Positions 12,600-44,076 of a DNA stretch of 64,000 nucleotides are shown in pieces. Origin of the DNA: the human T2T-CHM13v2.0 reference genome, Homo sapiens; the NCBI RefSeq assembly GCF_009914755.1, contig NC_060930.1. The stretch is one strand, 5' to 3'. Position 1 is the stretch's first letter, and the number at the start of each line of letters is the position of its first letter. The position numbers and the translations under genes are program-made. Below the pieces are notes generated by a model. The model searched no databases and had not been told where the DNA came from. It saw only the letters and a list, made by a program, of their open reading frames with translations.

Positions 12600-13490
12600 C
12601 TAGCATTTGGAATGCTAGAATCATCTGGTCCACCCTTCCATTCAGTGTGGGATGAGGGTGGCCACAGAAATCTTCTGGCCAATGAGATAAAACTGGAAGC
12701 TGTTGGATGGCTCTTCTGGGAAAGCTTGTGCAAAAGGGACAGACTCCATGAGCATGCCATCTGTCTGGCTTTAGACATTCGTCCTGTTTAGAAAGAGGTG
12801 TAACATTTGGAAATGCAGCAGCCCTGGATTGAATGAATGAATGAACAATGAGAAAGAAAGCCTCAAGCTAAGGTAGAGGGATGGAAAGACAGCAGGGGCC
12901 TGGGTTCCAGTGGTGCCCCTATTGAGGCAGCATGGAGCCACCATACAAGCCCTTGATGGCCTCTGCATCCATTACCTATTGCTGCATAATAAAGCACTCC
13001 AAACCTTAGTGGTTTAAAACAGCCAACATTTATTAATCACCAGTTCTGTAGTTAAGAAATCTGGGCACAGCTTAGCTGGGTGCCTCTGGCTCAGGGTTTC
13101 TCTCGAGGCTGCAGTTGTGCTGTCTGTCAAGGCTGCAGTCATCTCAACGCTTGACTGAGACTGAAGAATCTGCTGCCAAACTCACTTGGGTGGTTTCTTT
13201 CTGGCAGCCTCAGTTTCCCATGACAAGGGCCTCTCTGTGAGTTGCCTGAGCATGTTCATAGCATAGCAGCTGATGACCTAGGAGATAGCCATGGAGTATC
13301 CAGGTTAGAAGGCACAGCCTAATCCCAGAAATGACAGGCTGGCATCAATAAGAGGGGCTGGGGATCACTGAGAGTCATCATAGAGGCTGCCTACCACAGC
13401 CTCTGACCCCCAGATTTCTTGTTGCACAGCACAAAGAAATGCCTCTTTTATTTTAATCACTATTAACTGAGTGTTCTGCTACTTATAGTC
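12600..13490 (+). mobile_element. MLT1J/K-like LTR hosting a nested MLT1 element
   Basis: TTCTGGCCAATGAGATAAAACTGGAAG..CTTCTGGGAAAGCT; resumes after 13398. Confidence 0.5.
12965..13398 (-). mobile_element. MLT1F/H-like MaLR LTR (nested)
   Basis: ATTGCTGCATAATAAAGCACTCCAAACCTTAGTGGTTTAAAAC...GCTGCCTACCACA; 5-bp TSD GCCTC. Confidence 0.7.
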
Positions 13491-14215: not shown

Positions 14216-14384
14216 AGTAAATAGCAAATAGATGGTATATTCACCTGAATGCTTTCCAAGACCCTTCCTTCAGTAGGCTGACGACAGGAACTTTATCGTC
14301 ATCATTGACAGTCAGTATAACAGTGGTTCTCCAGCTTCCATCAGGACCACCTCGAGGAACTGATTATTAGAAACACAGATGAAA

Positions 14385-31758: not shown

Positions 31759-31943
31759 TTTCCTACCTGGAGCTCTGGCAAGTACCCACCCTCCCACCTC
31801 ATCTCTCTTATTTAACACCACCACATCACACATTCGATGGAGACACGAGAAGTGATACTGAGAAACACAAAGCAGCAAAAACAATGCCCTAGAAGCAGAC
31901 CATGAAAGATCTTGGAAGACTGACCAGTCTTCAGGCTTGGCAG
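31759..31943 (-). repeat. Local duplication copy A, containing an exon-like 91-nt cassette at 31857-31767
   Basis: Roughly 80% identical by eye to 32948-33149; minus-strand TTTGTGTTTCTCAG| ... CAG|GTAGGA. Confidence 0.9.
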
Positions 31944-32627
31944 GCTGCGCCAGAGCTTCCCACAGAGCCCACGGGTCCCTGCTGGCTCTGAAGTGGGCTG
32001 TGGGGGTGCCTGTGGAACCTGCCCTCCACTGGTGGAAGAAGTGAGGGGTAAGAAAGAAGGATTCAGCCAGAAACAAATGGGAGCCCCCTAGGATAGCCAG
32101 AGCTCACATGCAGCCCCCTCCACAGGTGGCTCCCAGCCCACCATTCCTGCAGGGAGAAGGAGGGCACAGTGGGGGCCACATGCCTGGAGAGCCCAAGGAG
32201 ATCCAGCCATCACTACTGGGACTAGGCCCCAGGGCCTGTCCAGCCTCCTGCCCAACTGCCTCTGAGAAAAGGGGATGGGGTGAAGGGAAAAAGTGAGGGA
32301 GAGAAGTCTATCTCTCAGCCAGGAAGAGCAAAGTCCCCCAGGCTCTCCCTAAATGCCCTGGGGCTCACTTGGCCACCCCTGCAGAACCACACACTCAGGC
32401 CTCCTCCAGTTAGAGGTTGAGTGTTTTTTCCCACCCCCCAGGCATGGGTGCTGGGAAATGATGGACTTAATAAAGTTTAACAAAGAAATGCAGTAGCCCT
32501 CTTTGGGTGGATAGTCCTCTTCTTTGGATGGGAGAAATAGGAACTTTCAGAAGATTCTAAGACATCTGGATAAACCAAGACTCTCTGAGTGGAGGCTGAA
32601 AAGTGATAAAGATTTTTGAGATCCTGG

Positions 32628-32895
32628 GCCTTCCAAAAAGCTCCACGACCCAACCTCCATGAAGGGAAGGCTCAGGCCAAGGGAGTGAGAGCTTTTAGAA
32701 AATTCCACAGTCCCTAAAGAGGCCATACGGTGACCTTTCAAGATGATAGGTTGAATGGGAAGGGAGACAATAGGGGTTCTGAAAGCTGAGCCTTCTAGAA
32801 AGTTCCACAGGTTGAGATAGCCCTCAACCCAACCTCCATGAAGGAAAGGCTGGGGCCCAGAGGATGAGACCTGTGCCTTCCAGAAAGCGCCATGA
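32628..32895. repeat. Short local repeat carrying HSE-like motifs
   Basis: GCCTTCYAGAAAGYTCCAC-like x4; ACCCAACCTCCATGAAGGRAAGGCT x2. Confidence 0.75.
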
Positions 32896-32947
32896 TCTGG
32901 TAACTGACTTGTGACCCAGCAGGGGCATGGTGGAAAGGTGGGCAGTG

Positions 32948-33149
32948 TTTCCTACCTGGAGCTCTATCACGTACCCACCCTCCAACTTCCTCTCTCTAAT
33001 TTAACATCACCACATCACACATTCAAAGAAAAGACTAGAAGTGACACTGAAAAACACAAGGCAACAGAAACAATGCCCAAGGGTTGACATAAAAACAAAG
33101 ACACAGGCCATGCAAGAGCTTGGAAGACTGACCAGCCTTCAGGCTTGGC
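32948..33149 (-). repeat. Local duplication copy B, containing an exon-like 91-nt cassette at 33046-32956
   Basis: Minus-strand CCTTGTGTTTTTCAG| ... CAG|GTAGGA. Confidence 0.9.
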
Positions 33150-34256
33150 AATCACCACCCTATTACACCTCTAAAAAAAACCAAGGCCAGAAAGACCATG
33201 TCATTGTTATCCATTGTCAGTGACAAGGCTGGAAACTTGACTGGCCTGATGCCAAAATCCCATTATAATCTGAAGCCTCAAGTAAGGTAAGACATTTGGG
33301 ACAGGGCCAGTGCACAGAATTGGAGGGATAAGAGGAAACCCTTCCTCTTGTTAGAAATCTTCCTCACCGTCCTCCCTTCAGGAGCCAGAGACCCCTAATC
33401 TTACCCCTCAAGTGCCAGAAACCTCGAGTCTCCCGCTTGCAGGGGCCAGGAAACCCCAGGTCTCAACCACCAGAGTACAGCCTCTGGGAGAGTCACTGAG
33501 ACAGTCCACGAGAGAAGGAGCAGCCAGGAGATCCCCCAGCTCCTTGTACTGGAAGGTGGTCTGGCCCTCAGTCTAGTTAGGCCTTGGCATCCTGGTATCA
33601 ACTGGTTTAACTGCCGTGTATCCCACTGTCTGGAAAGTGTACCAGATGACCCAGAGACCACCTTCGCATGGCTTCTGAGGCAGGAATCAGAGGCACAAGC
33701 TGCCTGCCGAGATTCCAAAGCACTGGTGTCACCCTGAGGGGTGGAAAGGAACGTCACAGTGGGTGGCCACCCCATGCTTGCTTTGGGGACTGATACTAGG
33801 GGTTCAGGACACCTGTAAGGGGTCTAAGGCAACTGAGTGTTTCAGCATTGTAGGGCCTAGGCAGCTGATCCCCTGTGAGATGAACCAAGGCTGTTGTGGC
33901 CGACTGGTGGTCTAGGCCCCTGGTGGGCCTTGAGATGTTAGGACACAGGCTGGGCACTGGGCAGCTGATATGCTCCAGGAATAGCCAAGGCACCCCGTCT
34001 AAGAGGCAACCCTGTGGATGCAACATTGTAGGAAACAGGTGGCCAGGAGCCAATGTGCTTTTCAGGAGATAACAGTGTCTCCTCTCTGAAGGCCCATTGG
34101 CAAGTGGGCACTGGACAGCCAAGCCTGCACATGCTAAATCAACTAAGGCACTAAGATCATCCTCTAGTCCTTTCTGGGGCTGGCAGCAGAGGTGCTGGTG
34201 TGGCCCAGTGACAGGGGACCAATGGAACTGGCAAGATAATATACTTGAAAGACATC

Positions 34257-34911
34257 CCCCGTCTGGGAGGTGGGGGGTGCCTCCGCCTGGCCGCCGCCCC
34301 ATCTGGGGGTGGGGGGCCCCTCTGCCCGGCTGCCATGTCTGGGAGGTGATGAGCCCCTCTGCCCGGCCGCCACCCCGTCTGGGAGGTGTACCCAACAGCT
34401 CATTGAGAACGGGCCATGATGACGATGGCGGTTTTGTCGAATAGAAAAGGGGGAAATGTGGGGAAAAAAAGAGAGATCAGATTGTTACTGTGTCTGTGTA
34501 GAAAGAAGTAGACATAGGAGACTCCATTTTATTCTGTACTAAGAAAAATTCTTCTGCCTTGGGATGCTGTTAATCTAGAACCTTACCCCCAACCCCGTGC
34601 TCTCTGAAACATGTGCTGTGTCAACTCAGGGTTAAATGGATTAAGGGCGGTGCAAGATGTGCTTTGTTAAACAGATGCTTGAAGGCAGCATGCTCCTTAA
34701 GAGTCATCACCACTCCCTAATCTCAAGGACCCAGGGACACAAACACTGCGGAGGGCCGCAGGGTCCTCTGCCTAGGAAAACCAGAGACCTTTGTTCACAT
34801 GTTTATCTGCTGACATTCCCTCCACTATTGTCCTATGACCCTGCCAAATCCCCCTCTCCAAGAAACACCCAAGAATGATCAATAAACACTAAAAAAAAAA
34901 TTAAAAAAAAA
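34257..34911 (+). mobile_element. 5'-truncated SVA (older, B/C-like): VNTR remnant, SINE-R and poly(A)
   Basis: CCCCGTCTGGGAGG VNTR units; SINE-R ending CCCAAGAATGATCAATAAA; TSD AAAGACATC (34248-34256, 34912-34920). Confidence 0.97.
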
Positions 34912-35595
34912 AAAGACATCAAGAACATGGGGTGTGTACTTCCTACTAACTTTTGAGACTTGCAGAGGCCCAGGCCAACTGTCAAGGGTCAAAGCACTGC
35001 ATGAACTTAACAGTGGGAGTTTAGAGAAGGTTGGGCATCCAGGGCACCAGAAGGAGGAGCAGGCCATGAGGAGGTGAATGTGAAGGCCAGCCGGCAATGC
35101 ACACTGAAAACCACAAAGGCCATGCCAAGGCAAGCCTCAATGGCTTCGGCAGCTGGTACTGGTGGTCCAGGCTCCTTGCCAAGGGGCTGAGGCATTGATG
35201 TAACTCTGGGGATGTGGGTTATGTGGGCAAATTGGGGGCCAGGCAGCCATGCCCTCTAAGAAGAATCAAGTCAATGTGCCAACTACTACTGCCAAGGTTT
35301 GAGGCTTTAGTGCTGACCCAGTGAAGCAGGGTCCAGTAAGACCAGCCAATACACCTTAGGTAAACCAAGGCAGTGTGAAAACAATGCTCTGTTTCTGGGG
35401 TATTGGTGTGGCCCCAGGGATCTAGGGCGAAGGGGCCCAGGCAGCCACGATACTCTGAGAATTTCCAAGGCAATGCAGTGGCTTCCCTGCAAGGTCTTTT
35501 GTGGCTGGAACCCATGGTTCAGGCCCCTTTCCAAGGAGTCATTGGTGTGGCCCCAGCAATAAGGAGAACATGGGGAAAATGTGGAGCCCAACTCA

Positions 35596-35757
35596 CAGAA
35601 TTGACAGATAAAATACAGAATGCCCAGCCTAATTTGAACTTTAGATAAACCACAAATAATGGCATGAAACATACTTACAAAATATTATTTGTTGTTTATC
35701 TGAAATTTAAATGTCACTGAGCATTCTGTATCTTTATTTGCTAAATCTTGCAACGTG
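35596..35757. mobile_element. MER53, internally deleted
   Basis: CAGATAAAATACAG..TTTGAACTTTAGATAAAC ... GTTTATCTGAAATTTAAAT..GCTAAATCTTGCAAC palindrome. Confidence 0.85.
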
Positions 35758-35920
35758 CGATCCATTCAGCCCATGTATTCTAAGAACCCAGGCAGCACAG
35801 AGGCCACCCTCATCGCTGTGGGGCTGGCACCAGATGCTTTGTCACTGCCAAGGGTGAGTCCCTCCTGTGGCCACAGTGGTGTGGGAAAACACCAAGGCAA
35901 ACCACGATGACCCTCTAATG

Positions 35921-36525
35921 CAGCCCTGCCCAACGGAGGCACGTGGGTCATTTTACACATGTGCCTCAGTAGCCACATTAAAAAGTAAAAAGAAATAGGT
36001 GAAATTAATTTGAATAACCCAATATAGCCAAAATAATATCCTTTCAACATGTAATCAATATAAACATATTAATGAGATATTTCACATTTCTTTTTTAGGA
36101 CTAAAGTTTCAAAGTCTGGTGTGTAGCTTGGTGCATCTCAACTTGAACTAGGCACATTTCAACATTTGAAGCGCTCACTAGCCACTTATACCATGGTGCA
36201 GCTTTTTTTTTCTTTTTTCTTTTTTCTTTTTTAAGACAGGGCCTCGCTCTGTCCCCCAGGCTGTAGTGCAGTGGTGCAATCTCAGCTCACTGCAGCCTCA
36301 AAGCCTGGGGCTCAAGCAATCCTCCCACCTTGGTCTCCCCAAGCAGCTGAGACTACAGGTGCACCCCACCACATGTGGATAATTTTTGTATTTTTTGTAG
36401 AGATGGGGTTTTACCATGTTGCTCAGGCTGGTCTTGAACTCCTGGCCTCAAGTAATCCACCTGCCTCAGCCTCCCAAAGTGCTGGAAATACAGGCATGAA
36501 CCATCATGTCCAACCCATAGTGCAG
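35921..36525. mobile_element. MER33 (hAT-Charlie) split by an AluJ
   Basis: TAGCCACATTAAAAAGTAAAAAGAAATAGGTGAAATTAATTT...TTTCAACATGTAATCAATATAAA. Confidence 0.85.
36203..36514 (-). mobile_element. AluJ
   Basis: GACAGGGCCTCGCT and GCTCAAGCAATCCTCCCACC; TSD CCATRGTGCAGCT. Confidence 0.93.
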
Positions 36526-38551
36526 CTCTTATAGCATCTGGGGATGGCACTCAGCACCTTGCCAAGAGTTCCAGGCCTTGGTGGATTCTAGTGATGTTAA
36601 GGATGCAGGGGCCAGGGAGCCAATGAACTCTAAGAAGAACCAAGGCAATGTGAGGACTACTTTCTCATGACTACTTGGGTTTCCCTGATGGCCCAGCCCC
36701 CTGCCAAGGGTCTGTGGTTTTGGGGTAAGCCCAGGGATGTGGGAGACTGGACAGTCAACACACTCTGGGAAGAAACAAGGTAAGGCTTACATTCCTCTCT
36801 AATGGGTGTAGAGACAGGCACCAAAGCCCCAGGCCCCAAGCCTAGGGTCTGAGTCAATGGAGTTGCCATTAATTTGGGGGAGATTTAAAGTTATTTGAAG
36901 GGGGCTAAGCAGCCGGGTAATATCTGTGGCAAGAGCCAAGTTAATGCAGTGACTATGTTCCAATGACTACAGTGGCTGACCTCAGAAATCAAGACCCCCT
37001 GATGACAGGTGATGTGGGGAGTGGTAGCCAACCAATATTGTCCTCAAAGAATCAGGCGACATGGTGAGCTCTGGAGTTGTCACAAAGGCACAAGGCCCTG
37101 CCAAGGGTCCCAAACACTGATGTGGCCTATATGACTTGAGGAAGAGGAGTGGGTGGGAGTCAATACACTCTCAGAAATAAATTCAAGGCATGTTGTCTTG
37201 CAGGTGGGGCCAAGCAGCCACTGTGGTCAATTTCACTCTCTGCCCCAGTAGCACTCAGATCCCACCCTCCAGAGCCATTCCTCCTCCCAGGACCTGTGCT
37301 CTTCCTCCAAGAATGTCTCTAGCTGACATTCTTGGCATGGCAACTGGGCACAAAGTATGCCTACCCCCTGGGATGGCCCACACCAGGCAAACAAAGCAGG
37401 GAGAGGTTGTCATTTTCTCTTGTTATATAAGTTCCTACACAATTGCCTCTGGTCCTCAAAGCCTAAAATGTTTGCTAATCCCTACTCTATATCATGACTT
37501 TCAGAGGCTGGACCAAAGGTCAAGACCCCTGCCAGGGATCTTAGGCCCCAGGGTGGCTCCTGTGATACGTGGGAGGGGGCCAGGCAGGCAAAACACCAAA
37601 AACCGAGACAACATGGTACCCACATTCTAGTGCTTTCTGAGACTGGCACTAGAAGCTAGGTTTCCTGCCAAGATTTGACACTTGGCATGCCCCTGGAGAT
37701 GACATCAGCCCCGGGGGCGGGGGTTGATGTCCCTGAGATTGCATCAGCCCCAGGGGACAATGTGAGCTCCCTAATGACCTGCCACTGAAGGGCGAGTGAA
37801 GAGACCCTTCACCAGGGCAGCCTGCTTACTCAACTATGCATTGCCAGAAAGGTGGCTGGCATGGGGCAGACAGAATCATTTCATTCCCTGGTCAGGAGTT
37901 TTCCTGGTGGAGGACCAGTTGTAAAATATGGGTGTATGAGGGATCCACAGAAAATGTAGCCACATAGGGATGGAACTGTCTAACACGTGTGATGTCGGTA
38001 AACTCAATGAGCGGAGGATGGCAGAATGGTTCTGCTCTGTTAATAGCTCCAAGGTGGAAGGAAAATGTGGATGTGTGTTCTGAAGTAGGAGCCTTGGAAA
38101 AAAGCTGGCCCAAAAGAGGAGCTCCTCTTCTTGTGCGACAGGACAGGAGGGTGAAGGAGAGTACAGAGACCCACCAAACTGACGAGCTGGGAATTTAAAG
38201 TCATTAACTTGGAGAGGTCTAAGATGATTGGGCATTACCTCTGTCTGCAGAGTAGGGTTGAAGATGGAGGGCAGAGAAAGGTGGAGGCAGGAGTGGGGAA
38301 AAAAAGGGAAAGGAGTAGGGTAGTCAGTGCAGGAGGTGCTTAGAGCACATTTGCAGCTTAGCATAAAGACTAGAGCCTCTTGAAGAGGGCTTAAAAAGGT
38401 CAGAGGACAGCATTCAGATTCGTGTCTTCCGGCTAAATGAAGTTGTATGGGCCATTCTCAGAAAATGTTGGGTATTGTGGTCCCAGGCTGAGAAAGTATC
38501 CAGAAGGTCAAGGTGCCCCATGACCAGGGTTCAGGTTTGGCAAATCAGGGG

Positions 38552-39286
<735 letters not shown>

Positions 39287-41802
39287 GGAGCCAGACCCTT
39301 TAAAGGATAAGAGGATCTCTGTGCTATCAAAGGGAAATGGCTGACGGAGGTGGTGTCAGGTGTGCAAGGGGAGTAAGGACATCATGAAGCTGGAAGGAGA
39401 CTTTGGAGGAAGCCGAGGCCCAGCACTGCAGTGAGAGTATATAAGAGCTCAGCAGCAGTTCAGTTTGGAGTTGAGATTAATAAAAGGAGCAGGAGTTAGG
39501 GTCAAAAGAGAAGCCTAAGTTTTGAGATCTCGGACGTGTGGAAGGTATCTGTCAAGGCCCAGCTTATGGTTTTGCCCATGGTAGCAGAAAGTAGTTGAAG
39601 AGGCATGGCAACAGGAAACCAGGATTCTAGAAAGGTCACTAACAAGGATATTGAAGTGACTATGGATGCCCACCTGGCAGGATGAAGAGACCACAGGACA
39701 GGTTCTAACCTTTCTGGAAGGTGGGAGAAGTGTTCAAGGCATGCAAGTGGTGGTAATAAATTACACGTGGTACACTTTGCAACAAGAGCTGTGAAGTATG
39801 TTTTAGATTTATAGGATTGAGTGGAGCAATTTTCTGTTCTCCTGGAGATGGGAGGTGAAGAGGGAATGGAAAGGCGAGGGACATTTCAGTTATGTACAGT
39901 GGTACAAGATGTGAACCAGAAAAGCTTTGGTGAGCGGGAGAGTTCATCATCAAGAGAGGTGATGGGAGTGCAGGAGTCCTACTGCTTAGTGCTTACTATT
40001 CAAACCCATGCTCCAACTCTCATCTTGGAAGTATTTACAAGAGGAGTGCATTGGTTCTCATGGAAAATGGGCAGAAAGGTCACAGATGCATCTATTGCTG
40101 CTGGGCAGAAATGACCAGCTCAGAAGTCAAAGACAAGGAAATAGAGGTTAGTTACATTATATAGATATGCTTCTTTCATTTACTGCAAATTCTGGTACAT
40201 CTACATTCTGATACATCTGTATCTCTAAGTTTGGTGTAAAATGCTCTGTGATTTCAAGTTGCTGTGGAGAAATCTTTCTGTGCACTTGAGCTCTTCTGGA
40301 ACTCCAGAGACACCAAGGATAATGCTTCAAACAACTACAAAATTCTCACAATTGATGACTACATTTACCCCTTCTCTTTTTTAAGCATAAAAATTGTTTA
40401 GTGCAATGTCTGCTTTCCGTGTAAGATCTGCTTAATCTGGATTCCCACTGATTTTTTCTGGGTTGTTTACGTGTTGATTTGGAAGGCTTGCAATCTCTAA
40501 GAATCTGTTAATGGTGGTCGTGTAGACCTGATCAAAGTTTGTTTATGATTTATTGTCCAAGTTTATAAGGTTTGTTTTCATTAAAGCTCTCAGAGATGGC
40601 ACAAGTTCTTTCTATGAGTAAAAACTTTCTGCTCAAATAGACCACTGGATATTTCATATTCATGCATGTGAAGGAGTACTACTCCTAAATCTGCATCTTA
40701 TAGCCATTATAAAAGGTTCCCAAGATACTCTTGGCTGACAGCTCCCTACATTGCAACTATGTGGATTAAATCACAGAGTAGTCTGATACTAGCGTGAAGA
40801 GCAAATCTCCTATGATACTATGCTAATCCCAGGAATGATCTGCCCTAGTTGGTATTTAATAAAGTGGTCCTTTTCTTTTATTATGGCAGCTTTTCTCTAG
40901 TACCTAATAGTGAATCTTTTGTGTCTCAAATATTTAGCTTCAACTATCCCAAGACAATAATTCACTGAGTTTTAGGACAGAGACAGAAGTAAGTGAAGAT
41001 GGTCTAAGCATTCTTCAAAGCTGTTATCTGAAGTTGCTGCTGCACTCTCCATGCAGGAAATGTAATAATATAATGACTCAGCTAATGACTGAGTACCCAC
41101 CATAAAGATTCCTCAGGTCAGGCAGCATTTAAACACGCCAGAGCATTATTTAAGGGGAGGGATCGAGGATTAGGCAAAGCAGATTGCATGATGATGTATT
41201 TAAGCTCTGTGCAAAAACATATGCATCCATCTAATTCTTATTGCTCTACGTGGCAGAAAATGACCTACAGACACATCGAACACCATGGCTACATAAACAG
41301 TAAGCAGAGAGCATGTATGAAGATATAGGTGCCTTTCAGTCAGGATGAGGTCAGGAAAAGAGACTCAGCATCAGTTTGTTAACAGAAGAAATTTCACAAA
41401 AGGAATTAGATAACAGATACTGGAGAGCTGAAAAGGCAAAGGCGACCACTGCAGCGACACCCTCCAGGCCAGGAGAATAAAGGGGGCAAGGATGGGGTTT
41501 TTAGAAGCTCAGGGAAAGGTGCTGATGTCTCAGCAGCTCTGAAGAGGGTCAGATGCCATTGAGGCTGTTGATGGTGTCTGGGTGACTTGGACGAGGGTCC
41601 CTGCATGCCAGGCTCAGGCATCAAAGTAACAGGCACTGACTGGCTGGGCAGGTGGCTCTAAGAGAGCATAGTGAGTCTAGTTCTGGAAGTATGAAAAGAA
41701 CTGGAACCAACTGCCACCACTTGGGGCAAACAGTTGCTTGGGTGAGAAGCAACTGTTTATTATAGGAACCAAACTCAAAACAGAAAAGAATAAGCCCCTC
41801 CT

Positions 41803-42828: not shown

Positions 42829-44076
42829 AATTTGAGAAGGATCTGGCAAAGGAGGGCTGGACCTGGTAAGGTCCCAACGCAGTGTGACACAGCAGGATAT
42901 ATAGGAAGAGGTCAGGAGGTAAGGAGCAAAGGCTTAATAACCCAAACAAGATGCACATGCACCTTATAATCCCGTCTACATGCAGGGAGGAAGGTAAAGC
43001 AGTAAACTAGGTTACTGTGTTCTGTGTATCACCCTTACTTAAATTTGGAATAACCCTAGGGGCTTTCTTAAATCAAAGTCTTAAATTTGTTTTGCCCATC
43101 CAGTGTTTCTAAATCAGATTTTTTTTAACTGTTCCTTCAGTTATATACCAAAAGTATCTCTACAAATTGATGTTAGGAACTTTCTGAGCCCTAAATCAAT
43201 ATAGTAAGAGAATCATTTCTGGGTAGAATGAAAAAGAAATTTTCAGACTGGGTTCATGCTTATATTCTATACGAAGCCTAGCCCTGCTTTTCCAAAGAAG
43301 TAGTGACACATATGGAAATGACAACCAGCAAGACCCAAGTCTGACAAGGAGGCTGAATTGCCCCTTTAGAATTATCATTTCTGCCACCTCCCAGCACTTT
43401 ACCACTTACCTAAAAGAAGACAAAATAATAGACTCTTTTGCTTCCAGTACCTATAATGTACATTTCCAGGTTTGTTTTGGAGTACAGCTGTGAAATCCTT
43501 CAGCACTGACATAATTCTCTTCCCTCCAATTGTGAAGTGTTCTTTGAGCAATGTAATTGTTCCCCACTGCAATTCTTACAGCAGCGTGTCAGCATGCCAA
43601 TCACTTCTTCTTCTTCCAGTTCTGATTCTTCCAGTTCCCTGCTGTGTTAACACCCAGAATGAGTCCTTCCAGCTGTTGAAAGATGTCAGCATATTTATAT
43701 GAACTACTTTATGTTTCCTGGGGAAATGTTCTAAAAGAAAAGAGATCTTGGCCGGTATGCTTGTGATTCTGCAGAGATGTGACTTGGCTTGCATTTATAT
43801 TTTCTTTGGGGTCAGTAATAGTATTAAGTATTTCAAATGGCACATGTGACTACACAGTGTCACTTTATCTTAACTGAGCTTTGGTCATCTGTATTCCATT
43901 CAATTAGACTACACATATCACTCAGATATCTCTTCTGGAAATGAGAAAATTTGTCTTGTGGTAGGTTCTCCCAGGAAAACCTTGAAGATATCATTTATTG
44001 CAATGTTGCTGGACAGCACAAACTCATGGAACTTTTTCTGACATTTCAAATTTCTCTTTATCTTATGTTTGCATAA

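What the first reader, a model, noticed from the sequence alone, without database searches (positions are those of the whole stretch)
33640..37690. Cryptic ancient ~140-bp tandem array matching no repeat family I recognise
Seen: after removing SVA, MER53, MER33 and AluJ, ~2.6 kb remains, made of diverged units with a hand-built consensus of approximately GGTCCAGGCCCCTGCCAAGGGTCTGAGGYATTGGTGTGGCCCCAGGGATGTGG..GGGGCCAGGCAGCCAATACACTCTGAGAAGAACCAAGGCAATGTGGTGACYACCTTCCAATGRCTTCTGTGGCTGGMACCA. TGCCAAGG-type anchors fall at about 33705, 33814, 34981, 35177, 35290, 35530, 35847, 36560, 36702, 36839, 37099, 37530 and 37666. Units are so diverged that tandem-repeat finders may miss them. Inference: a locus-specific repeat domain of a lncRNA, a small-RNA precursor cluster or a lost gene. 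This is the best candidate in the window for an undescribed system.
Basis: partly seen in the sequence, partly recalled or inferred. Interest (0 to 1): 0.85.

Follow-up and report, generated by a model that had tools for sequence, protein, structure and literature searches.

The report
Old decayed 142-bp tandem array
This stretch of a human chromosome 6 intron is a genuine but very old and heavily mutated head-to-tail repeat found only at this one place, and nothing suggests it does anything, so it is most likely ordinary decaying DNA.

Summary
Window 33653-37690 carries about 20 head-to-tail units, all on the + strand. The full unit is about 142 bp and many units are shortened by deletions. 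Untrained single-unit nhmmer queries gave 22 hits inside the array, 0 elsewhere in the 64 kb and 0 on the minus strand. An iterated HMM finds 14 units at E<0.01, against self only in 20 of 20 shuffles. TRF misses it.

Units are about 57% identical pairwise and CpG o/e is 0.08. An SVA, a MER53-like element, a MER33-like element carrying an Alu, and one older fragment each split a unit, so the array predates them.

No second copy appeared in T2T-CHM13 by BLAST-type searches or by two core motifs. These tests are blind to copies below about 70% identity, and Dfam and other mammals were not available.

I found no RNA family, consensus structure, stable hairpin, Pfam match or coding paralogue. The array lies in an intron of LOC105375053.

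Best reading: an ancient locus-specific minisatellite-class array decaying neutrally. Interest is low.

The parts
33653..37690 (+). Whole decayed tandem array: about 20-21 units of a roughly 142-bp unit, all head-to-tail on the + strand, interrupted by four later insertions (one of them carrying a nested Alu)
33653..34256 (+). Array block A: a partial tail, then units starting near 33703, 33812, 33900, 33988, 34063 and 34175. Most are short (75-112 bp) variants that lack the unit tail.
   Evidence: HMM rows; units 33805 and 33899 align only to model positions 2-93
34257..34911 (+). SVA-type insertion (37-bp VNTR, SINE-R-like body, poly-A) flanked by the duplicated target AAAGACATC at 34248-34256 and 34912-34920. 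It splits one array unit.
Evidence: Sequence; TRF 37-bp period at 34302-34372 and the A-run; one HMM hit bridges 34189 to 34960 once the insertion is excised.
34912..35567 (+). Array block B: units starting near 34975, 35174, 35289, 35382 and 35526
35568..35776 (.). Palindromic MER53-like DNA-transposon copy inserted into a unit. Matches to other genomic copies cover about 35594-35760.
Evidence: Inverted self-match, 68.5% over 213 bp; 764 first-look candidates in the genome, best copies 71-89% identical. Head of the unit lies before it and 'CAGCCCATGTATTCTAAGAACCCAGGCA' after it.
35777..35920 (+). Array block C: tail of the unit split by the MER53-like element, then a unit head at 35845 that is cut off at 35920
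35921..36527 (.). MER33-like hAT element with an Alu nested at 36203-36515 (minus orientation). It is flanked by CTCTAATG / CTCTTATAG and splits one unit.
Evidence: 1621 first-look candidates, best copies 71-81% identical; Metazoa_SRP hits on the minus strand; Alu matches within the window. One HMM hit bridges 35880 to 36534 once it is excised (E 0.005).
36528..37239 (+). Array block D, the best preserved: units at 36557, 36699, 36836, about 36965, 37096 and a head-deleted unit near 37200
37240..37480 (.). Non-array insert inside a unit, probably an old interspersed-repeat fragment (boundaries approximate)
   Evidence: No HMM match. Window 37337-37476 has two weak dispersed matches, on contigs C11 (75%) and C21 (80%).
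37481..37690 (+). Array block E: tail of the interrupted unit, a full unit at 37527-37663, and a last head-only unit at 37664

Best explanation
This is an ancient, single-locus, non-coding tandem array of the minisatellite class. The unit is about 142 bp, there are about 20 units, and about 2.4 kb survives.

Inferred history: one segment of about 142 bp was duplicated locally and expanded by unequal exchange or replication slippage in an early mammalian ancestor. Shortened unit variants were themselves re-duplicated. Homogenisation then stopped. Since then the array has decayed as methylated, unconstrained DNA through substitutions, CpG loss and indels. It was later hit by a MER53-like and a MER33-like DNA transposon, an older fragment, an Alu and an SVA.

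It sits in an intron of the predicted lncRNA LOC105375053 and has no detectable function of its own.

Shown: the periodicity, the strand uniformity, that the array predates the insertions, the divergence level, the CpG depletion, and the absence of close copies elsewhere in the genome.

Inferred: the mechanism of expansion, the age, and neutrality.
For: Periodic array on one strand:
- The five self-BLAST direct pairs have offsets that differ by 142 bp.
- 22 of 22 untrained single-unit hits lie inside the array on the + strand.
- 14 HMM units at E<0.01, against self only in 20 of 20 shuffles.

Growth by local duplication:
- A run of short, tail-less units with spacings of 109, 88, 88 and 75 bp sits at 33703-34063, beside full 142-145-bp units elsewhere.

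Age:
- Mean pairwise identity is 57% (range 42-75%, 65 pairs); K2P is about 0.67.
- A neutral star simulation with 30% substitutions per unit gives a mean column identity of 0.726, close to the observed 0.72.
- Units continue across the excised SVA and the excised MER33-like+Alu (bridging HMM hits). They also continue across the MER53-like element.
- Those two DNA transposons belong to dispersed families whose best other copies are only 71-89% identical.

Neutral decay:
- CpG o/e is 0.084 at 53% GC, against 0.16 in the rest of the window.

Locus-specific, within the limits of the tests:
- Four TE-free chunks (436, 611, 641 and 711 bp) searched against the 3.1-Gb assembly found only themselves. 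The exceptions were two weak hits, and both fall in the non-array insert.
- The same tool does recover 71-89% identical old repeats.
- A 24-mer core at up to 3 mismatches gave 7 genome hits: 2 in the array and 5 elsewhere. Three of the five are one identical contig-C9 sequence. None of the five loci showed an array under the HMM.
- A degenerate 29-mer gave 5 genome hits: 4 in the array and 1 on contig C2, with no array there.
- The unit HMM has no hit in 200 kb upstream, and only one at E 1.2 in the rest of the window.

No sign of function.
Against: - No library of interspersed-repeat consensus sequences (Dfam, Repbase) could be searched, so 'uncatalogued' is untested.
- The whole-genome tests cannot see copies below roughly 70% identity. 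Copies of an old family would be that diverged from these units.
- No other mammalian genome was available. Synteny, age and constraint therefore rest on inference from within-array divergence.
- Column conservation is somewhat uneven. The SD of column identity is 0.182, against 0.11-0.17 in 26 usable neutral simulations. The best 8-column mean is 0.896, reached by 1 of 26. The conserved parts are the TGCCAAGG head and the AGCC...CCAAGGCA core.
- That unevenness could hint at constrained motifs. However, the real alignment has fewer letters per column than the simulations and the units are not a star tree, so it is not evidence of selection.
Confidence: 0.65

Rival explanations
1. The array is a piece of, or was seeded by, an ancient interspersed repeat that is already catalogued. 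Either it is an internal tandem region of an old TE copy, or it is a TE-derived minisatellite. In that case it would carry a Dfam/RepeatMasker label and would not be a new sequence family.
For: - Ahmed & Liang 2012 (PMC3389668, abstract read) report that at least 23% of human minisatellites and satellites derive from TEs.
- Kojima 2018 (PMC5753468, passages read) lists many still-unclassified ancient human repeat families (Eutr, EUTREP, MARE and others). Any of these could hold such a unit.
- My genome tests cannot detect copies below about 70% identity.
Against: - No other copy was found by four BLAST-type genome searches. The two core motifs gave 6 of 12 genome hits inside the array, and none of the six outside loci showed an array.
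- The unit HMM finds nothing in about 260 kb of surrounding sequence, which must contain the abundant old families.
- The flanks 32300-33650 and 37680-38540 are also unique at BLAST level, apart from one local duplicate. The array is therefore not visibly embedded in a larger dispersed element.
Confidence: 0.2
2. The array is functional non-coding DNA. It could be a reiterated transcription-factor platform or chromatin element, since the conserved sub-motifs TGCCAAGG and AGCCAAT resemble NFI half-sites and CCAAT boxes (recalled). Alternatively it could be a repeat domain of an unannotated transcript.
For: - The head and core motifs are kept better than the rest of the unit. Column-identity SD is above all 26 usable neutral simulations.
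- CCAAGG occurs 13 times on the + strand and once on the minus strand. The shuffle mean is 2.6 and the maximum 8 in 200 shuffles.
Against: - The motif excess simply reflects the repeat itself.
- CCAAT is not enriched: 6 on the + strand against a shuffle mean of 3.7 and a maximum of 10.
- CpG o/e of 0.084 argues for long-term methylation rather than an active regulatory island.
- RefSeq functional elements in the window lie elsewhere, and the array is intronic (hub annotation).
- The simulation difference is explained by fewer sequences per column and by shared ancestry among the units.
- Five mobile-element insertions (one nested in another) and many unit deletions have been tolerated.
Confidence: 0.08
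3. The array is a relic of expressed products: either a cluster of small-RNA precursors, or the decayed tandem-repeat exon of a lost protein-coding gene (142 bp is about 47 codons).
For: Several stop-free frames of 85-125 aa run across units on the minus strand. The unit length is near a multiple of three.
Against: - The Rfam scan at E<=1 hits only the Alu and the MER53-like hairpin.
- RNAalifold predicts 0 pairs. Twelve of 12 unit folds are no better than shuffles, with z from -1.0 to +1.65.
- Pfam matched 0 of 7 frames.
- The 99-aa frame finds no paralogue at E<0.04 in the six-frame genome and does not even recover its sister units, so similarity is no stronger at protein level.
- The best-preserved spacings are 142-145 bp and are not multiples of three.
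- Long open frames are expected by chance in 53% GC sequence.
Confidence: 0.04

Closest known systems
Locus-specific minisatellite or VNTR-type tandem arrays that have stopped homogenising (decayed tandem repeats, as discussed for ULTRA, PMC11580682, passages read)
   Same: Head-to-tail units on one strand at a single locus. Unit-length variants were themselves re-duplicated. There is no coding or RNA signal. The array is invisible to TRF because identity is far below its roughly 70% limit.
   Different: The unit (about 142 bp) is longer than classical minisatellite units. The array is much older and more decayed (about 57% pairwise identity) than arrays normally catalogued. Polymorphism in copy number was not testable here.
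TE-derived minisatellites and satellites (Ahmed & Liang 2012, PMC3389668, abstract read)
   Same: A tandem array of a unit about 100-150 bp long inside otherwise unique intronic DNA, expanded by local duplication.
   Different: No parent TE could be identified. No dispersed copies of the unit were found. Dfam was not available for a proper test.
Repeat domains of lncRNAs such as the 156-bp RRD of FIRRE or the NORAD units
   Same: Reiterated units of roughly 100-400 nt within a lncRNA locus.
   Different: Here the units lie in an intron of the only annotated transcript. They show no conserved structure and are far more decayed. No expression data were available.

Membership tests
Tandem array (minisatellite class), single locus | Units lie head to tail, on the same strand and in register, with a constant period | tested here: met
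   22 of 22 single-unit hits are on the + strand inside the array. HMM unit starts are spaced 142-145 bp for full units. Self-BLAST offsets differ by 142 bp.
Tandem array (minisatellite class), single locus | The similarity among units exceeds chance | tested here: met
   14 units at E<0.01, against self only in 20 of 20 dinucleotide shuffles. Untrained pairwise E-values reach 1.6e-9.
Tandem array (minisatellite class), single locus | The unit is absent from other loci of the genome | tested here: inconclusive
   No other copy was found by four BLAST-type searches or two motif scans of the 3.1-Gb assembly, and none in 200 kb upstream. Sensitivity ends near 70% identity.
Catalogued interspersed repeat (Dfam/Repbase family) | Significant match to a family consensus or profile | not testable with these tools
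   No Dfam or Repbase library is on hand. Rfam shows nothing in the array units.
Catalogued interspersed repeat (Dfam/Repbase family) | Many dispersed copies in the same genome | tested here: not met
   Array chunks find only themselves. The inserted MER53-like and MER33-like pieces give 764 and 1621 first-look candidates with the same tool. Copies more than about 30% diverged would be missed.
Catalogued satellite (multi-locus or large arrays) | Further arrays of the same unit elsewhere in the genome | tested here: not met
   4 of the 5 genome-wide hits of the degenerate 29-mer core, and 2 of the 7 hits of the 24-mer core, are in this array. The other hits show no array.
miRNA or small-RNA precursor cluster | Each unit forms a hairpin more stable than shuffled sequence, with a conserved structure or an Rfam match | tested here: not met
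   z-scores run from -1.0 to +1.65 in 12 of 12 folds. The consensus has 0 pairs. No Rfam hit falls in the array units at E<=1.
lncRNA repeat domain | The repeats lie in exons of a transcript | tested here: not met
   The hub annotation places the LOC105375053 exons at 13072-13277, 14245-14359 and 43410-43670, so the array is in the intron. Unannotated transcripts could not be tested.
Coding tandem repeat or pseudogene | Protein-level similarity to a known family or paralogue, and a period that is a multiple of three | tested here: not met
   Pfam matched 0 of 7 frames. The best foreign hit in the six-frame genome search has E 0.04. Full-unit spacings are 142-145 bp.

The most novel reading that the evidence does not exclude
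The array is a eutherian-wide or older syntenic tandem array whose head (TGCCAAGG) and core (AGCCAAT...CCAAGGCA) motifs are held by selection. On this reading it would be a reiterated protein-binding platform, or a repeat module of an unannotated transcript, in the gene-poor interval around chr6:40.6 Mb. It would be an uncatalogued class of ancient, locus-specific regulatory repeat.
Probability: 0.05. Interest if true: 0.55.

Novelty: new member of a known kind. Interest (0 to 1): 0.2.

Why it matters
If the array is simply a decayed minisatellite, it matters only as an example. Several kilobases of 'unique' human intronic DNA can be an old tandem array that TRF and masking miss. This is relevant to annotating genomic dark matter and to avoiding spurious self-similarity in homology searches. 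It would matter more only if cross-species data showed the unit motifs to be under constraint.

Tried and rejected
- Chance. Rejected by the shuffle control and by the confinement of hits to one strand and one locus.
- TRF-detectable repeat. None of this period was found.
- Searching the whole genome with my own sequence profile (model R1). The tool does not accept it for this genome. I used BLAST-type DNA queries and two short core motifs instead, which are far less sensitive.
- The motif hits outside the array were inspected. Those on contigs C1, C7 and C2 were read as sequence and scanned with the unit HMM. The C9 loci were scanned with the HMM only. All show no array and look like chance.
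- Six-frame Pfam scan of 12 kb around the array. Only 7 stop-free frames were scanned, with 0 hits, so broken TE reading frames in the flanks remain unexamined.
- Protein-level search of the genome with one 99-aa frame. Nothing significant.
- Rfam, RNAalifold and single-unit folding. Nothing.
- Column-conservation test against a neutral simulation. There is a mild excess of heterogeneity, but it is confounded by the lower number of sequences per column and by non-star ancestry, so I do not use it as evidence of constraint.
- Earlier findings of the scan.
- A second 200 kb of neighbouring sequence downstream.
- Literature. One paper mentions LOC105375053, only as the gene nearest a suggestive GWAS indel. 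The searches turned up no description of this array. No search by sequence string was made.


Full report

Yes. The region was read. They carry 0-3 mismatches to TGCCAAGG. The exact octamer occurs 6 times in 33640-37690, against 2 times in the other 58.5 kb.

A low-stringency self-BLAST of 33000-38500 gave five direct pairs between the blocks at 35.1-35.6 kb and 36.55-36.98 kb. Their offsets (1525 and 1383; 1317 and 1175) differ by 142 bp.

Seven single units were used as untrained nhmmer queries against the whole window. Together they gave 22 hits at E<0.01. All 22 lay inside the array on the + strand, none elsewhere in the 64 kb, and none on the minus strand. Two of the seven queries, the most decayed left-hand units, found nothing.

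I excised the younger insertions and iterated a profile. This reports 22 rows at E<=10, of which 14 have E<0.01, all in register. Start-to-start spacings are 142-145 bp for complete units and 58-131 bp where a unit carries deletions. The same procedure on 20 dinucleotide-preserving shuffles returned only the seed itself in 20 of 20. Tandem Repeats Finder sees nothing of this period.

**Anatomy**

The array runs from about 33653 to 37690 and holds about 20-21 units.

- The left part (33703-34175) is a run of shortened units that lack the unit tail, with spacings of 109, 88, 88 and 75 bp. This implies that a truncated variant was itself re-duplicated.
- The best-preserved units are at 36557, 36699 and 36836.

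Four insertions interrupt the array, and in each case the unit resumes on the other side.

- An SVA-type element at 34257-34911, with the duplicated target AAAGACATC. A single profile hit bridges 34189 to 34960 after excision.
- A palindromic MER53-like element at 35568-35776.
- A MER33-like element at 35921-36527, flanked by CTCTAATG / CTCTTATAG, with a minus-strand Alu nested at 36203-36515. A profile hit bridges 35880 to 36534 with E 0.005.
- A fragment of about 240 bp near 37240-37480, which has two weak dispersed matches elsewhere.

What I tested is that the two DNA-transposon-like pieces belong to dispersed families. They gave 764 and 1621 first-look candidates, and the best other copies are 71-89% identical. 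Kojima 2018 (PMC5753468, passages read) files MER33 under hAT and MER53 under Mariner/Tc1.

**Age and mode of evolution**

- Over 65 unit pairs the mean identity is 57% (range 42-75%) and K2P is about 0.67.
- A neutral star simulation with 30% substitutions per unit, run through the same pipeline, gives a mean column identity of 0.726 against the observed 0.72.
- A per-unit divergence near 30% is, from recalled knowledge of human repeats, in the range of MIR and L2 copies. That points to an origin before or early in the eutherian radiation. This is an inference and an upper bound, because the units need not have been identical at the start.
- CpG o/e is 0.084 at 53% GC, against 0.16 in the rest of the window. 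This fits long-methylated, unconstrained DNA.

**Is the unit found elsewhere?**

- Four TE-free chunks (436, 611, 641 and 711 bases) were searched against the 3.1-Gb assembly. They matched only themselves, apart from two weak hits that fall in the non-array fragment.
- The same tool readily finds 71-89% identical old repeats. The blank is therefore meaningful down to roughly that identity and no further.
- A 24-letter core motif at up to 3 mismatches gave 7 hits genome-wide: 2 in the array and 5 elsewhere. Three of the five are one identical sequence on contig C9. The unit HMM found no array at any of these loci, and the C1 and C7 sequences were also read.
- A degenerate 29-place motif gave 5 hits: 4 in the array and 1 on contig C2, with no array there.
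- The unit profile has no hit in 200 kb upstream. Its only hit in the rest of the window has E 1.2. The unit is therefore not derived from one of the abundant old families present in any 260 kb of human DNA.
- The flanks 32300-33650 and 37680-38540 are also unique, apart from one local duplicate.
- A profile search of the whole genome was not possible. Dfam and Repbase are not on hand, and no other mammal could be examined. These are the main gaps.

**Function**

- The array lies in the 14359-43410 intron of the one annotated transcript, and RefSeq functional elements lie elsewhere (hub annotation).
- An Rfam scan at E<=1 hits only the Alu and the MER53-like hairpin.
- RNAalifold on 11 units predicts no pair.
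- Six units folded on both strands have z-scores from -1.0 to +1.65.
- Seven stop-free frames have no Pfam match.
- A 99-residue frame across the units finds nothing better than E 0.04 in the six-frame genome, and does not recover its sister units.
- The head and core of the unit are kept somewhat better than the rest. The SD of column identity is 0.182, above all 26 usable neutral simulations. However, the real alignment has fewer letters per column and the units share ancestry, so I do not read this as constraint.
- CCAAT itself is not enriched.

**Conclusion**

Its functional readings find no support.

The best explanation (0.65) is an ancient single-locus tandem array of the minisatellite class. 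It was built by local duplication and has since been left to decay. The main rival (0.2) is that the unit stems from a catalogued old interspersed repeat. At least 23% of human minisatellites and satellites are TE-derived (PMC3389668, abstract). Decayed tandem repeats are a known annotation problem (PMC11580682, passages).

The only paper that names the lncRNA lists it as the gene nearest a sub-threshold GWAS indel (PMC11253699, one passage). The searches found no description of this array.

This is a new member of a known kind, and its interest is low.

Noticed in passing
window 31759-31942 and 32948-33150; also 32643-32693 and 32822-32872: Local direct duplications (79% and 80% identity) just left of the array. 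The first pair was also the only non-self genome hit of the left flank.
   Followed up: no
window 37690-37765: Immediately after the last unit there are two look-alike pieces of about 35-40 bp (GATGACATCAGCCCC... and GATTGCATCAGCCCC...), seen by eye. This may be the remnant of another short duplication.
   Followed up: no
window 36203-36515: An old Alu in minus orientation, nested at the 3' side of the MER33-like element and flanked by ATGGTGCAGC / ATAGTGCAGC. It carries a sub-threshold Rfam mir-3135 match (48.9 bits against a gathering score of 80), as Alu-derived sequence often does.
   Followed up: partly
window 38000-40000: Strong excess of G over C on the + strand (GC skew up to 0.37) to the right of the array. 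A dispersed repeat with 3031 first-look candidates starts near 38543.
   Followed up: no
window 37337-37476: The non-array fragment inside a unit has weak matches on contigs C11 (75%) and C21 (80%). It is probably an old interspersed-repeat fragment of unknown family.
   Followed up: partly
LOC105375053 locus (outside the array): A GWAS of chronic axonal polyneuropathy lists an indel at 6-40,807,644 (build not stated in the passage) with p = 1.4e-6, nearest gene LOC105375053. It is below genome-wide significance and has no known link to the array (PMC11253699).
   Followed up: no
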